The notes beneath the pieces were generated by a model. It was not told the DNA's origin and ran no database searches. It was given only the letters and a program-made list of their open reading frames with translations. From NCBI RefSeq assembly GCF_009914755.1, contig NC_060925.1: 64,000 bases of DNA; one strand, written 5' to 3'. Below, piece by piece: positions 53,006-64,000 of the stretch (position 1 is its first letter; each line of letters begins with the position of its first letter). This DNA comes from the human T2T-CHM13v2.0 reference genome, Homo sapiens. Made by a program: the position numbers and the translations under genes.

Positions 53006-56000
53006 TCAATTCCCACTTATGAGTGAGAATATGCGGTGTTTGGTTTTTTGTTCTTGCGATAGTTTACTGAGAATGATGGTTTCCAATTTCATCCATGTCC
53101 CTACAAAGGACATGAACTCATCATTTTTTATGGCTGCATAGTATTCCATGGTGTATATGTGCCACATTTTCTTAATCCAGTCTATCATTGTTGGACATTT
53201 GGGTTGGTTCCAAGTCTTTGCTATTGTGAATAGTGCCGCAATAAACATACGTGTGCATGTGTCTTTATAGCAGCATGATTTATAGTCCTTTGGGTATATA
53301 CCCAGTAATGGGATGGCTGGGTCAAATGGTATTTCTAGTTCTAGATCCCTGAGGAATCGCCACACTGACTTCCACAATGGTTGAACTAGTTTACAGTCCC
53401 ACCAACAGTGTAAAAGTGTTCCTATTTCTCCACATCCTCTCCAGCACCTGTTGTTTCCTGACTTTTTAATGATTGCCATTCTAACTGGTGTGAGATGATA
53501 TCTCATAGTGGTTTTGATTTGCATTTCTCTGATGGCCAGTGATGATGAGCATTTCTTCATGTGTTTTTTGGCTGCATAAATGTCTTCTTTTGAGAAGTGT
53601 CTGTTCATGTCCTTCGCCCACTTTTTGATGGGGTTGTTTGTTTTTTTCTTGTAAATTTGTTTGAGTTCATTGTAGATTCTGGATATTAGCCCTTTGTCAG
53701 ATGAGTAGGTTGCGAAAATTTTCTCCCATGTTGTAGGTTGCCTGTTCACTCTGATGGTAGTTTCTTTTGCTGTGCAGAAGCTCTTGAGTTTAATTAGATC
53801 CCATTTGTCAATTTTGGCTTTTGTTGCCATTGCTTTTGGTGTTTTGGACATGAAGTCCTTGCCCACGCCTATGTCCTGAATGGTAATGCCTAGGTTTTCT
53901 TCTAGGGTTTTTATGGTTTTAGGTCTAACGTTTAAATCTTTAATCCATCTTGAATTGATTTTTGTATAAGGTGTAAGGAAGGGATCCAGTTTCAGCTTTC
54001 TACATATGGCTAGCCAGTTTTCCCAGCACCATTTATTAAATAGGGAATCCTTTCCCCATTGCTTGTTTTTCTCAGGTTTGTCAAAGATCACATAGTTGTA
54101 GATATGCGGCATTATTTCTGAGGGCTCTGTTCTGTTCCATTGATCTATATCTCTGTTTTGGTACCAGTACCATGCTGTTTTGGTTACTGTAGCCTTGTAG
54201 TATAGTTTGAAGTCAGGTAGTGTGATGCCTCCAGCTTTGTTCTTTTGGCTTAGGATTGACTTGGCGATGCGGGCTCTTTTTTGGTTCCATATGAACTTTA
54301 AAGTAGTTTTTTCCAATTCTGTGAAGAAAGTCATTGGTAGCTTGATGGGGATGGCATTGAATCTGTAAATTACCTTGGGCAGTATGGCCATTTTCACGAT
54401 ATTGATTCTTCCTACCCATGAGCATGGAATGTTCTTCCATTTGTTTGTGTCCTCTTTTATTTCCTTGAGCAGTGGTTTGTAGTTCTCCTTGAAGAGGTCC
54501 TTCACATCCCTTGTAAGTTGGATTCCTAGGTATTTTATTCTCTTTGAAGCAATTGTGAATGGGAGTTCACTCATGATTTGGCTCTCTGTTTGTCTGTTGT
54601 TGGTGTATAAGAATGCTTGTGATTTTTGTACATTGATTTTGTATCCTGAGACTTTGCTGAAGTTGCTTATCAGCGTAAGGAGATTTTGGGCTGAGACGAT
54701 GGGGTTTTCTAGATAAACAATCATGTCGTCTGCAAACAAGGACAATTTGACTTCCTCTTTTCCTAATTGAATACCCTTTATTTCCTTCTCCTGCCTGATT
54801 GCCCTGGCCAGAACTTCCAACACTATGTTGAATAGGAGCGGTGAGAGAGGGCATCCCTGTCTTGTGCCAGTTTTCAAAGGGAATGCTTCCAGTTTTTGCC
54901 CATTCAGTATGATATTGGCTGTGGGTTTGTCATAGATAGCTCTTATTATTTTGAAATACGTCCCATCAATACCTAATTTATTGAGAGTTTTTAGCATGAA
55001 GGGTTGTTGAATTTTGTCAAAGGCTTTTTCTGCATCTATTGAGATAATCATGTGGTTTTTGTCTTTGGCTCTGTTTATATGCTGGATTACATTTATTGAT
55101 TTGCGTATATTGAACCAGCCTTGCATCCCAGGGATGAAGCCCACTTGATCATGGTGGATAAGCTTTTTGATGTGCTGCTGGATTCGGTTTGCCAGTATTT
55201 TCTTGAGGATTTTTGCATCAATGTTCATCAAGGATATTGGTCTAAAATTCTCTTTTTTGGTTGTGTCTCTGCCCGGCTTTGGTATCAGAATGATGCTGGC
55301 CTCATAAAATGAGTTAGGGAGGATTCCCTCTTTTTCTATTGATTGGAATAGTTTCAGAAGGAATGGTACCAGTTCCTCCTTGTACCTCTGGTAGAATTCG
55401 GCTGTGAATCCATCTGGTCCTGGACTCTTTTTGGTTGGTAAACTATTGATTATTGCCACAATTTCAGAGCCTGTTATTGGTCTACTCAGAGATTCAACTT
55501 CTTCCTGGTTTAGTCTTGGGAGAGTGTATGTGTCGAGGAATGTATCCATTTCTTCTAGATTTTCTAGTTTATTTGCGTAGAGGTGTTTGTAGTATTCTCT
55601 GATGGTAGTTTGTATTTCTGTGGGATCGGTGGTGATATCCCCTTTATCATTTTTTATTGTGTCTATTTGATTCTTCTCTCTTTTTTTCTTTATTAGTCTT
55701 GCTAGCAGTCTATCAATTTTGTTGATCCTTTCAAAAAACCAGCTCCTGGATTCATTGATTTTTTGAAGGGTTTTTTGTGTCTCTATTTCCTTCAGTTCTG
55801 CTCTGATTTTAGTTATTTCTTGCCTTCTGCTAGCTTTTGAATGTGTTTGCTCTTGCTTTTCTAGTTCTTTTAATTGTGATGTTAGGGTGTCAATTTTGGA
55901 TCTTTCCTGCTTTCTCTTGTAGGCATTTAGTGCTATAAATTTCCCTCTACACACTGCTTTGAATGCATCCCAGAGATTCTGGTATGTGGTGTCTTTGTTC

Positions 56001-61062: not shown

Positions 61063-64000
61063 ATGACAGGATCAAATTCATACATAACAATATTAACTTT
61101 AAATGTAAATGGACTAAATGCTCCAATTAAAAGACACGGACTGGCAAATTGGATAAGGAGTCAAGACCCATCAGTGTGCTGTATTCAGGAAACCCATCTC
61201 ACATGCAGAGACACACATAGGCTCAAAATAAAAGGATGGAGGAAGATCTACCAAGCAAATGGACAACAAAAAAAGGCAGGGGTTGCAATCCTAGTCTCTG
61301 ATGAAACAGACTTTAAACCAACAAAGATCAAAAGAGACAAAGAAGGCCATTACATCATGGTAAAGGGATCAATTCAACAAGAAGAGCTAACTATCCTAAA
61401 TATATATGCACCCAATACAGGAGCACACAGATTCATAAAGCAAGTCCTGAGTGACCTACAAAAAGACTTAGACTCCCACACATTAATAATGGGAGACTTT
61501 AACACCCCACTGTCAACATTAGACAGATCAATGAGACAGAGAGTCAACAAGGATACCCAGGAATTGAACTCAGCTCTGCACCAAGCAGACCTAATAGACA
61601 TCTACAGAACTCTCCACCCCAAATCAACAGAATATACATTTTTTTCAGCACCACACCACACCTATTCCAAAATTGACCACATACTTGGAAGTAAAGCTCT
61701 CCTCAGCAAATGTAAAAGAACAGAAATTATAAAAAACTATATCTCAGACCACAGTGCAATCAAACTAGGACTCAGGATTAAGAATCTCACTCAAAACCGC
61801 TCAACTACATGGAAACTGAACAACCTGCTCCTGAATGACTACTGGGTACATAACGAAATGAAGGCAGAAATAAAGATGTTCTTTGAAACCAACAAGAACA
61901 AAGACACAACATACCAGAATCTCTGGGACACATTCAAAGCAGTGTGTAGAGGGAAATTTACAGCACTAAATGCCCACAAGAGAAAGCAGGAAAGATCCAA
62001 AATTGACACCCTAACATCACAATTAAAAGAACTAGAAAAGCAAGAGCAAACACATTCAAAAGCTAGCAGAAGGCAAGAAATAAGTAAAATCAGAGCAGAA
62101 CTGAAGGAAATAGAGACACAAAAAACCCTTCAAAAAATTAATGAATCCAGGAGCTGGTTTTTTGAAAGGATCAACAAAATTGATAGACCACTAGCAAGAC
62201 TAATAAAGAAAAAAAGAGAGAAGAATCAAATAGATGCAATGAAAAATGATAAAGGGGATATCACCACTGATCTCACAGAAATACAAACTACCATCAGAGA
62301 ATACTACAAACACCTCTATGCAAATAAACTAGAAAATCTAGAAGAAATGGATAAATTCCTTGACACATACACTCTCCCAAGACTAAACCAGGAAGAAGTT
62401 GACTCTCTGAATAGACCAATAACGGGAGCTGAAAATGTGGCAATAATCAATAGCTTACCAACCAAAAAGAGTCCAGGACCATATGGATTCACAGCTGAAT
62501 TCTACCAGAGGTACAAGGAGGAACTGGTATCATTCCTTCTGAAACTATTCCAATCAATAGAAAAAGAGGGAATCCTCCCTAACTCATTTTATGAGGCCAG
62601 CATCACCCTGATACCAAAGCCGGGCAGAGACACAACCAAAAAAGAGAATTTTAGACCAATATCCTTGATGAACATTGATGCAAAAATCCTCAAGAAAATA
62701 CTGGCAAACCAAATCCAGCAGCACATCAAAAAGTTTATCCACCATGATCAAGTGGGCTTCATCCCTGGGATGCAAGGCTGGTTCAATATACGCAAATCAA
62801 TACATGTAATCCAGCATATAAACAGAACCAAAGACAAAAACCACATGATTATCTCAATAGATGCAGAAAAGGCCTTTGACAAAATTCAGCAACCCTTCAT
62901 GCTAAAAACTCTCAATAAATTAGGTATTGATGGGACGTATCTCAAAATAATAAGAGCTATCTATGACAAACCCACAGCCAATATCATACTGAATGGGCAA
63001 GAACTGGAAGCATTCCCTTTGAAAACTGGCACAACACAGGGATGCCCTCTCTCACCACTCCTATTCAACATAGTGTTGGAAGTTCTGGCCAGGGCAATTA
63101 GGCAGGAGAAGGAAATAAAGGGTATTCAATTAGGAAAAGAGGAAGTCAAGTTGTCCCTGTTTGCAGACGACATCATTGTATATCTAGAAAACCCCATTGT
63201 CTCAGCCCAAAATCTCCTTAAGCTGATAAGCAACTTCAGCAAAGTCTCAGGATACAAAATCAATGTACAAATATCACAAGCATTCTTATACACCAACAAC
63301 AGACAAACAGAGAGCCAAATCATGAGTGAACTCCCATTCACAATTGCTTCAGAGAATAAAATACCTAGGAATCCAACTTACAAGGGATGTGAAGGACCTC
63401 TTCTAGGAGAACTACAAACCACTGCTCAAGGAAATAAAAGAGGATACAAACAAATGGAAGAACATTCCATGCTCATGGGTAGGAAGAATCAATATTGTGA
63501 AAATGGCCATACTGTCCAAGGTAATTTACAGATTCAATGCCATCCCCATCAAGCTACCAATGACTTTCTTCACAGAATTGGAAAAAACTACTTTAAAGTT
63601 CATATGGAACCAAAAAAGAGCCCACATCGCCAAGTCAATCCTAAGCCAAAAGAACAAAGCTGGAGGCATCACACTACCTGACTTCAAACTATACTACAAG
63701 GCCACAGTAACCAAAACAGCATGGTACTGGTACCAAAACAGAGTTATAGATCAATGGAACAGAACAGACCCCTCAGAAATAACACCGCATATCTACAACT
63801 ATGTGATCTTTGACAAACCTGAGAAAAACAAGCAATGGGGAAAGGATTCCCTATTTAATAAATGGTGCTGGGAAACTGGCTAGCCATATGTAGAAAGCTG
63901 AAACTGGATCCCTTCCTCACACCTTACACAAAAATCAATTCAAGCTGGATTAAAGACTTCAACGTTAGACCTAAAACCATAAAAACCCTAGAAGAAAACC
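61063..64000 (+). pseudogene. ORF2: Frameshifted ORF2 of the SpIRE; first 763 codons (EN and RT core) still open
   Basis: Colinear with the intact ORF2 to ...PFTIAS. A 2-bp deletion after 63351 shifts the frame to a stop at 63681; a further 1-bp deletion at about 63873. Confidence 0.93.

What the first reader, a model, noticed from the sequence alone, without database searches (positions are those of the whole stretch)
54091..63803. Inverted L1 neighbours of different age share private non-CpG substitutions: local gene conversion?
Both elements carry three transversions absent from the L1HS/L1PA consensus as I recall it. These are ORF2 I98 ATA>ATC (56540 / 61356), N544K AAT>AAG (55202 / 62694, 'AKILKKIL' instead of 'AKILNKIL'; the older L1 at about 14860 has Asn) and L915V CTG>GTG (54091 / 63803, 'YNYVIF'). 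Differences between the copies persist 15-30 nt away, so tracts would be short. Independent origin of three identical transversions is unlikely. Short-patch conversion between inverted repeats about 0.8 kb apart would mean a dead L1 and an intact L1 exchange coding sequence. An assembly or polishing cross-talk artefact is the main alternative.
Basis: partly seen in the sequence, partly recalled or inferred. Interest (0 to 1): 0.8.

Follow-up and report, generated by a model that had tools for sequence, protein, structure and literature searches.

The report
Dead L1 rewrote its live neighbour
Two head-to-head L1 retrotransposons of different age, one still intact, share three rare base changes that are best explained by short patches copied from the old dead copy into the young one, and this seems to be one case of a wider local exchange among L1 copies.

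Summary
Element A (minus strand, 52641-58817) is a full-length L1HS with both ORFs open. Element B (plus strand, from 59611) is an older 5'UTR-spliced L1PA copy. Their 5' ends lie 793 nt apart.

- **Shared sites:** over 5424 aligned columns they share four alleles that are rare in a 35-copy panel.
- **Allele counts (exact 33-mers, T2T):** ATC 28 vs ATA 4827; AAG 24 vs AAT 5193; GTG 40 vs CTG 5367. Only A and B carry two or more of the three.
- **Chance:** A shares 0.04 such variants per kb with 33 older distant copies. That predicts 0.21 for this pair.
- **Mechanism:** short-tract nonallelic gene conversion, most likely B to A. AAG also sits in three older L1s within 550 kb, together with a second B variant that A lacks.
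- **Limits:** "private" is too strong. Raw reads, other haplotypes and A's parent could not be checked; the parent site on chr10 is empty in this genome.
- **Wider pattern:** L1 pairs under 0.3 Mb apart share about four times more rare variants than distant pairs.

The kind is known; this L1 case is clean. Interest is moderate.

The parts
52641..58817 (-). Element A: full-length L1HS with a second poly(A) and a 3' transduction. Its 3'UTR diagnostic trinucleotide is ACG; calling that 'pre-Ta' is recalled.
   Evidence: It is 98.9-99.0% identical to two other L1HS copies.
52626..52640 (.). Target-site duplication of A, 3' side. The identical 15-mer lies at 58818-58832.
58818..58832 (.). Target-site duplication of A, 5' side.
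52680..52757 (-). 78-nt 3' transduction of A. Its only other match is chr10:18795844-18795921 (99%), where no young L1 lies upstream in this genome.
56897..57913 (-). ORF1 of A, 338 aa, open.
53006..56833 (-). ORF2 of A, 1275 aa, open. It carries K544 (RT domain) and V915 (wrist domain).
58833..59610. Spacer between the two 5' ends. It holds an Alu-like stretch at about 59279-59497 (from the hub's mask table and the look of the sequence).
59611..64000 (+). Element B: an older L1PA copy (GAG at the 3'UTR diagnostic site) with its own target-site duplication. It runs on to about 65108, outside the window.
   Evidence: It is 96.6% identical to A over A positions 702-6125.
59706..59707 (+). 5'UTR splice junction of B. 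L1 nt ~97 is joined to nt ~619-622, the SpIRE97/622 type.
   Evidence: The class is as described in PMC5860796 (passages).
61063..63681 (+). ORF2 remnant of B. It is open for 872 codons, after which a 2-nt deletion (near 63350) shifts the frame.
56514..56592 (-). Largest possible tract in A around ATC (56540), 79 nt. The partner in B is 61304-61382.
55186..55288 (-). Largest possible tract in A around AAG (55202), 103 nt. The partner in B is 62608-62710.
54022..54109 (-). Largest possible tract in A around GTG (54091), 88 nt. The partner in B is 63785-63872.
56861..56995 (-). Possible fourth tract, 135 nt, around a shared CpG C>T (56922). The partner in B is 60901-61035, with the site at 60974.

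Best explanation
After the young L1HS (A) inserted 793 nt from the 5' end of an older, dead L1PA copy (B) in the opposite orientation, three or four short patches of B were copied into A. Each patch is at most about 80-135 nt. The mechanism is nonallelic (intrachromosomal) gene conversion: repair of a break or a heteroduplex in A using the 96.6%-identical neighbour as template. The patches carried B's own rare mutations into A. These are a synonymous ATA>ATC, N544K and L915V in ORF2, and probably a CpG C>T near the end of ORF1. What is shown: the sharing, its rarity, its excess over chance, and the fact that it cannot be descent. What is inferred: the repair mechanism, the direction, and the timing after insertion.
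For: (1) Four shared rare alleles are found in 5424 aligned columns, against 176 difference events. (2) Each of the three transversions is at 0.5-0.7% among roughly 5000 copies with the same 33-mer. Only A and B carry two or more of the three. (3) A shares 6 such variants with 33 older distant copies over 151.5 kb. That predicts 0.21 for this pair, and 4 are seen, or 3 without the CpG site. (4) Descent is excluded. A is an L1HS 98.9-99.0% identical to two other L1HS copies that lack all four alleles. B is 3.4% away, has the older state at most subfamily-diagnostic sites, and has its own target-site duplication. (5) All four sites sit in identical runs of 79-135 nt. Only about a quarter of positions lie in runs that long (about 0.004 for 4 of 4 by my arithmetic). 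(6) Direction, first argument: AAG is also carried by three older L1s at chr1:80.23, 80.25 and 80.57 Mb. With B, these share a second rare variant (4040C) that A lacks. A as source would need four recipients; B or its like as source needs one. (7) Direction, second argument: B has about 62 private substitutions and A has 17 non-CpG differences from its two L1HS relatives. Three detected tracts therefore need far fewer events from B to A. There is no excess of long identical runs: 11 of at least 79 nt against 13.5 expected.
Against: No reads, no second human assembly and no ape orthologue could be examined, so neither the base calls nor the pre-conversion states are confirmed. A's parent is not in this genome, so it is not shown that A arrived without the alleles. 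Direction for ATC and GTG rests on parsimony only. One young-type copy elsewhere (chr2:19.195 Mb) has ATC with A's flanking allele. Two chr5 copies combine ATC with another A-specific variant; they match neither A's nor B's 60-mer, and I read them as chance. The tract evidence is modest. Each tract carries only one marker, and no diagnostic site in A is visibly converted. The panel has only two L1HS copies, so 'A-specific' includes lineage variants.
Confidence: 0.78

Rival explanations
1. Gene conversion in the other direction, or both ways. The changes arose in, or were inherited by, the young element A and were copied into the old copy B.
For: ATC with A's neighbouring young-type allele occurs in one other copy. 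Two other copies combine ATC with a further A-specific variant, so ATC could belong to A's lineage. In Alu, young-to-old conversion is the commoner direction (PMC8230782, passages).
Against: AAG sits in four old local copies, with 4040C beside it in all four and 3715G only 16 nt away in three of them. Three of A's 17 non-CpG specific variants would have had to be transferred without a matching excess of identical runs. The two chr5 copies do not match A's 60-mer.
Confidence: 0.09
2. Exchange at the moment of insertion. While A's cDNA was being integrated 0.8 kb from B, repair synthesis or strand invasion used B as a template for short stretches.
For: There is no direct evidence. The idea fits the closeness of the two 5' ends. 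cDNA-mediated conversion is described for yeast Ty and Tf2 (PMC6598467, read in part).
Against: The sites span 2.4-2.8 kb of the element in separate patches. A has clean target-site duplications and a full 5' end. The same kind of sharing is seen between old copies far apart.
Confidence: 0.04
3. Assembly or polishing cross-talk between the two arms, or a change private to the CHM13 cell line.
For: The arms are inverted repeats at 96-98% identity, 1.5 kb apart. No reads could be examined.
Against: Only 3-4 of about 180 differing sites are affected, and all carry alleles that are rare in the family. Like sharing occurs between L1 copies 6-300 kb apart, which have different structures. From general knowledge, long accurate reads span both elements and the unique spacer.
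Confidence: 0.05
4. Independent recurrent mutation at mutable sites, that is, coincidence.
For: Each allele recurs 24-40 times in the genome. Chance double carriers exist elsewhere.
Against: 0.21 are expected against 3-4 seen. All three are transversions in a young element. The partner is the immediate neighbour.
Confidence: 0.04

Closest known systems
Local Alu-Alu nonallelic gene conversion (Aleshin and Zhi 2010, as summarised in PMC8230782 and PMC6598467)
   Same: Dispersed retrotransposon copies share non-diagnostic mutations more when they lie close together. The tracts are short. The inference is made from one genome.
   Different: [quoted passage not shown] Here the elements are 6-kb L1s, one of them with open reading frames. 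The wider signal I see reaches 0.3 Mb and perhaps 1-3 Mb.
Old-to-young Alu conversion, 'life after death' (PMC8230782, passages seen)
   Same: An inactive old copy overwrites part of a young, potentially active one.
   Different: Those cases were called from whole or half elements changing subfamily. Here only single rare sites moved, and protein-coding sequence is affected.
Ectopic conversion among LTRs on the human Y (Trombetta 2016, as cited in PMC6598467)
   Same: Clusters of derived alleles are traced to a donor copy elsewhere.
   Different: That work used population data, which I could not use.
Conversion of pre-existing L1s noted in surveys of young human L1s, and arm-to-arm conversion in palindromes (both recalled; no paper seen)
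   Same: L1 sequence, or inverted arms, are homogenised by conversion.
   Different: Recalled only. As I recall them, the L1 cases are young elements replacing old ones, the opposite direction.
SpIRE97/622 (Larson et al. 2018, PMC5860796)
   Same: B has the 5'UTR deletion at the splice sites of this class, plus its own target-site duplication and poly(A).
   Different: This names B only. The paper's main text has no occurrence of 'gene conversion'.

Membership tests
Nonallelic gene conversion between dispersed repeats | Paralogous copies share derived variants that are rare in the family and are not explained by descent. | tested here: met
Nonallelic gene conversion between dispersed repeats | The sharing is tract-like, with differences locally erased around the shared sites. 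| tested here: inconclusive
   All 4 sites lie in identical runs of 79-135 nt, while about 25% of positions lie in such runs. Each tract has one marker, and long runs are not in excess overall.
Nonallelic gene conversion between dispersed repeats | A donor carries the variant in an older context. | tested here: met
   This is met for AAG: B and three older local copies carry it together with 4040C. For ATC and GTG the evidence is only suggestive.
Nonallelic gene conversion between dispersed repeats | The pre-conversion state of the recipient is known from a parent, an orthologue or other haplotypes. | not testable with these tools
   The parent site on chr10 is empty in this genome. No other human or ape genome is held.
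Full-length intact L1HS (element A) | Two open reading frames with the L1 domains. | tested here: met
   There are 12 residue differences from a solved ORF2p within the first 1000 residues printed.
Full-length intact L1HS (element A) | Target-site duplication, poly(A), and the young-subfamily 3'UTR trinucleotide. | tested here: met
   The reading ACG = pre-Ta is recalled.
Full-length intact L1HS (element A) | Retrotransposition competence. | not tested
   This needs a cell-culture assay.
SpIRE97/622 (element B) | The 5'UTR is joined from about nt 97 to about nt 622. | tested here: met
   the first block ends at A's L1 nt 96-97 and the second starts at nt 619, with a 2-nt overlap. The numbering is A's, not that of L1.3.
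SpIRE97/622 (element B) | Listed among the 116 curated copies. | not tested
   The supplementary table was not opened.

The most novel reading that the evidence does not exclude
L1 copies within a chromosomal neighbourhood (clearly under 0.3 Mb, perhaps up to 1-3 Mb) exchange short patches so often that a sizeable share of the 'private' mutations of an old L1 are shared with its neighbours. Dead copies then act as a reservoir of variants for live ones. L1 ages and source-progeny trees built from shared mutations would be locally distorted.
Probability: 0.4. Interest if true: 0.75.

Novelty: new member of a known kind. Interest (0 to 1): 0.55.

Why it matters
- **Lineage tracing:** an intact L1HS has taken two amino-acid changes and a silent change from a dead neighbour. 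If it retrotransposes, those changes travel with it. Source-progeny inference from shared variants would then point the wrong way.
- **Clean case:** the two copies differ in age, so descent cannot explain the sharing. Most cases of conversion between L1 copies are ambiguous on this point.
- **Wider consequences:** if the distance effect among L1 copies holds genome-wide, divergence-based ages of L1 copies and counts of private mutations need a correction for local exchange.
- **Search of the literature:** in five full-text searches I found no genome-wide study of this for L1. The reviews I read describe it mainly for Alu.

Tried and rejected
- **Parent of A:** an exact 44-mer of the transduced stretch matched only A. 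A call allowing mismatches gave no answer. A 78-nt DNA search found the chr10 source site, which holds no young L1 here. The parent's alleles stay unknown.
- **Segmental duplication as the cause of the local chr1 cluster:** rejected. L014, L015, L016 and B align only within the L1 body and have different 5' ends.
- **Simple descent of B and L014-16 from one side lineage:** rejected. L014-16 have the older state at sites 4173, 4302 and 4536, where B has the younger one.
- **GC-biased spread:** not supported. The W>S share of doubletons is 0.30 for near pairs and 0.36 for far pairs.
- **A-specific variants as a local signal:** 2856G, 3416G and 4162T have 10, 23 and 16 carriers, none near A. Only 4226C has local carriers: 3 of its 20 carriers lie in chr1:80.54-80.78 Mb.
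- **Younger copies only:** with copies at least 94.5% identical to A, the excess under 0.3 Mb is not significant on its own. It rests on 7 pairs, and 614 of 10000 permutations reach it.
- **Age gap of 3% or more:** once the oldest copies are removed, only 3 doubletons in 4 near pairs remain. Conversion between unlike subfamilies is therefore shown by A/B rather than by the panel.
- For that reason the co-carriers on other chromosomes were not examined for duplication.
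Full report
**Anatomy**

The right end of the window holds two L1 elements head to head.

Element A lies on the minus strand at 52641-58817.
- It is flanked by an identical 15-nt target-site duplication at 52626-52640 and 58818-58832.
- ORF1 (338 aa, 56897-57913) and ORF2 (1275 aa, 53006-56833) are both open. They carry the expected Pfam domains.
- ORF2p aligns end to end with solved human ORF2p. There are 12 differing residues in the first 1000 printed.
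- The 3'UTR diagnostic trinucleotide is ACG. Calling that 'pre-Ta' is from memory.
- Behind its first poly(A), A carries 78 nt of foreign sequence and a second poly(A).
- That stretch matches one other place in the genome, chr10:18795844-18795921, at 99%. There it follows an A-rich site and ends about 15 nt after a polyadenylation signal.
- No young L1 lies upstream of it in this genome. A is therefore the offspring of an L1 on chr10 that CHM13 does not carry.

Element B lies on the plus strand from 59611 and runs about 1.1 kb past the window end, to about 65108.
- It has its own target-site duplication and a short poly(A).
- Its 5'UTR jumps from about L1 nt 97 to about nt 619-622. That is the SpIRE97/622 class of Larson et al. 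(PMC5860796, passages).
- Its ORF2 is open for 872 codons and then frameshifted.
- It has GAG at the 3'UTR site and the older state at most subfamily-diagnostic sites.

A and B are 96.6% identical over A positions 702-6125. Their 5' ends are 793 nt apart, and the homologous arms are 1506 nt apart.

**The observation**

Solved ORF2p has N544 and L915. The old L1 at 14851-14880 has AAC.

Of 5424 aligned columns, 5240 are identical between A and B and 184 differ, in 176 events. Only four sites have A = B with an allele present in at most 10% of the panel. The list is therefore complete.

**How rare are the alleles?**

The whole T2T genome could be searched for exact 33-mers.

| Site | Rare allele | Common allele |
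|---|---|---|
| Codon 98 | ATC, 28 | ATA, 4827 |
| Codon 544 | AAG, 24 | AAT, 5193 |
| Codon 915 | GTG, 40 | CTG, 5367 |

Each rare allele is at 0.5-0.7%. That is about what recurrent mutation in thousands of old copies would give, so 'private' is too strong.

When the lists are joined by position, only A and B carry two or more of the three. One caveat applies: an exact 33-mer misses old copies that have a second change nearby, so the counts are lower bounds.

**Chance**

- A shares 6 rare non-CpG variants with 33 older, distant copies over 151.5 kb. This predicts 0.21 for the 5.4 kb shared with B.
- Four are seen, giving P = 7.5e-5.
- Without the CpG site, three are seen, giving about 1.4e-3 (my arithmetic from the same rate).

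**Not descent**

- A is 98.9-99.0% identical to two other L1HS copies (L049, L051), which lack all four alleles.
- B is 3.4% away from A and belongs to an older stage.
- Each element has its own target-site duplication.
- Exchange at the DNA level, or an error, is what remains.

**Tracts**

- The identical runs that hold the four sites are 135, 79, 103 and 88 nt long.
- Only 11 of 175 runs are 79 nt or longer. Together these hold about a quarter of the positions.
- All four sites falling in such runs has a probability of about 0.004 (my arithmetic).
- This is modest support for patches that erased a neighbouring difference or two.
- Several of the bounding differences are CpG changes that could be later than the exchange. 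The patches may therefore have been somewhat longer.
- Long runs are not in excess overall: 11 against 13.5 expected. The total converted length must be small, a few hundred nt.

**Direction**

AAG (A position 3699) is also in three older L1s at chr1:80.234, 80.245 and 80.571 Mb.
- These three and B share a second rare variant, 4040C, which A lacks.
- The three also carry 3715G, only 16 nt from the AAG site. Neither A nor B has it.
- Three AAG carriers elsewhere in the genome lack 4040C.
- If AAG had started in A, it would have had to reach four old copies up to 545 kb away. Starting in B or its like, it needs one step.

The numbers point the same way.
- B has about 62 private substitutions (78 columns including gaps).
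- A has 17 non-CpG differences from its two L1HS relatives in the aligned part, and 4 of these equal B.
- A few short patches from B would usually carry a B-private change. Patches from A would rarely carry an A-specific one.

For ATC and GTG the direction is by parsimony.
- Weak hints for B: ATC with B's flanking allele occurs in 11 copies, one of which (chr8:123.46 Mb) also has 4040C. A pair of chr11 pericentromeric copies has GTG with 4040C.
- Hints against: one young-type copy (chr2:19.195 Mb) has ATC with A's flank. Two chr5 copies join ATC to another A-specific variant; these match neither A's nor B's 60-mer.

**What the changes touch**

K544 lies in the reverse-transcriptase domain (Pfam RVT_1, residues 517-773). 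V915 lies in the 'wrist' domain, residues 863-1061 (PMC10830420, passages). Whether they affect activity was not tested.

**A wider pattern**

The chr1 neighbourhood shows more than this pair.
- 6 of the 61 genome-wide carriers of 4040C lie in chr1:79.35-80.79 Mb.
- 5 of the 24 AAG carriers lie there.
- 3 of the 20 carriers of A's own K720T change (4226C) lie in chr1:80.54-80.78 Mb.
- The local copies have different 5' ends and no flank homology.
- The three AAG copies are an older stage than B. Neither duplication nor simple descent fits.

I then asked whether this is general, using the 35 panel copies (chr1:45-69 Mb, 595 pairs).

| Distance between the pair | Non-CpG alleles carried by exactly two copies, per 100 kb of overlap |
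|---|---|
| Under 0.3 Mb | 53 |
| 0.3-1 Mb | 23 |
| 1-3 Mb | 19 |
| 3-10 Mb | 11.5 |
| Beyond 10 Mb | 13.7 |

- Shuffling positions among copies gave a mean of 19.3 near-pair doubletons against 57 observed. None of 10000 shuffles reached the observed value. Shuffling within age classes gave the same result.
- The excess holds within each class of age difference. It also survives removal of the five oldest copies and of one possible duplicate.
- Near pairs differ in truncation or inversion structure. Of 29 near pairs, one (L044/L046) has a long flank match. Five show short hits that by position look like unaligned old 5' ends or overlapping loci.
- Doubletons of near pairs sit in longer identical runs: 2.79 against 2.00 in units of the pair's mean spacing (P = 0.028).
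- They are richer in transversions (0.46 against 0.32), and some lie in tight groups.
- Of six singleton transversions drawn at random from six copies, two had another carrier within 1 Mb of the source, against 0.30 expected (the expectation is my arithmetic).

Several cautions apply.
- The signal is strongest between copies of like age. For those pairs, local co-descent of sub-lineages is not excluded.
- In the subset of younger copies, the excess under 0.3 Mb alone is not significant.
- There is no GC bias.
- The clusters on other chromosomes were not checked for segmental duplication, because no more sequence could be fetched.

**Comparison with what is known**

- Conversion between dispersed repeats is established, chiefly for Alu. 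It is reported within about 10 kb and falling with distance, with some old-to-young cases (PMC8230782, passages; PMC6598467, parts 1-2 of 4 read).
- In five full-text searches I found no genome-wide treatment for L1. A 2026 preprint on L1 in pangenomes names gene conversion only in passing.
- Reports of young L1s converting pre-existing ones are recalled, not seen.
- I therefore file the A/B case as a new member of a known kind. Its merit is that descent is excluded by the age gap and that the recipient is an intact element.

**Verdict**

The direction is most likely dead-to-live. The base calls themselves remain to be confirmed in reads and in other haplotypes.

Noticed in passing
G000 chr1:79.35-80.79 Mb (L014, L015, L016, L052 and window element B): A neighbourhood of independent L1 insertions of different age shares rare variants in a mosaic pattern. 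4040C is in 6 local copies, 3699G in 5, 4226C in 3 and 4934C in 4. L016 and L052, 32 kb apart, share 7.
   Followed up: partly
L017-L051 (chr1:45-69 Mb): Rare non-CpG variants carried by exactly two of 35 L1 copies are about four times more frequent in pairs under 0.3 Mb apart than in pairs over 3 Mb apart. None of 10000 position shuffles reach the observed count.
   Followed up: partly
window 54675 (ORF2 codon 720 of A): A's K720T change (AAG>ACG) is shared with two old L1s 205 and 240 kb away and with only 17 other places in the genome, four of them subtelomeric. This may be a further conversion into A, or from it, or chance.
   Followed up: partly
L013 (chr10:18794001-18803500), about 1841-1926: This is the source site of A's 3' transduction. 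In this genome it is an empty site with an A-rich target and a polyadenylation signal before the end of the transduced stretch. A's parent L1 is absent from CHM13.
   Followed up: yes
G000: chr3:142.316/142.341 Mb, chrX:24.901/24.915 Mb, chr8:123.377/123.461 Mb, chr18:53.665/53.719 Mb, chr3:41.79-41.87 Mb (four copies), chr3:53.4-54.8 Mb (four copies): Carriers of a given rare L1 allele often come in nearby pairs or groups, many of them in opposite orientation. Whether these are duplications or separate insertions was not checked.
   Followed up: no
L044 and L046 (chr1:65.56 and 65.76 Mb): 939 nt beside the L1 pieces match at 95%, so this pair may be a segmental duplicate rather than two insertions.
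   Followed up: no
window 59611-59707: B is a 5'UTR-spliced L1 of the SpIRE97/622 kind, with its own target-site duplication.
   Followed up: yes
window 56212 (A position 2689): A and B share C where four of A's five closest relatives have G. The allele is in 7 of 29 panel copies, so it is uninformative, but it could be a further converted site.
   Followed up: no
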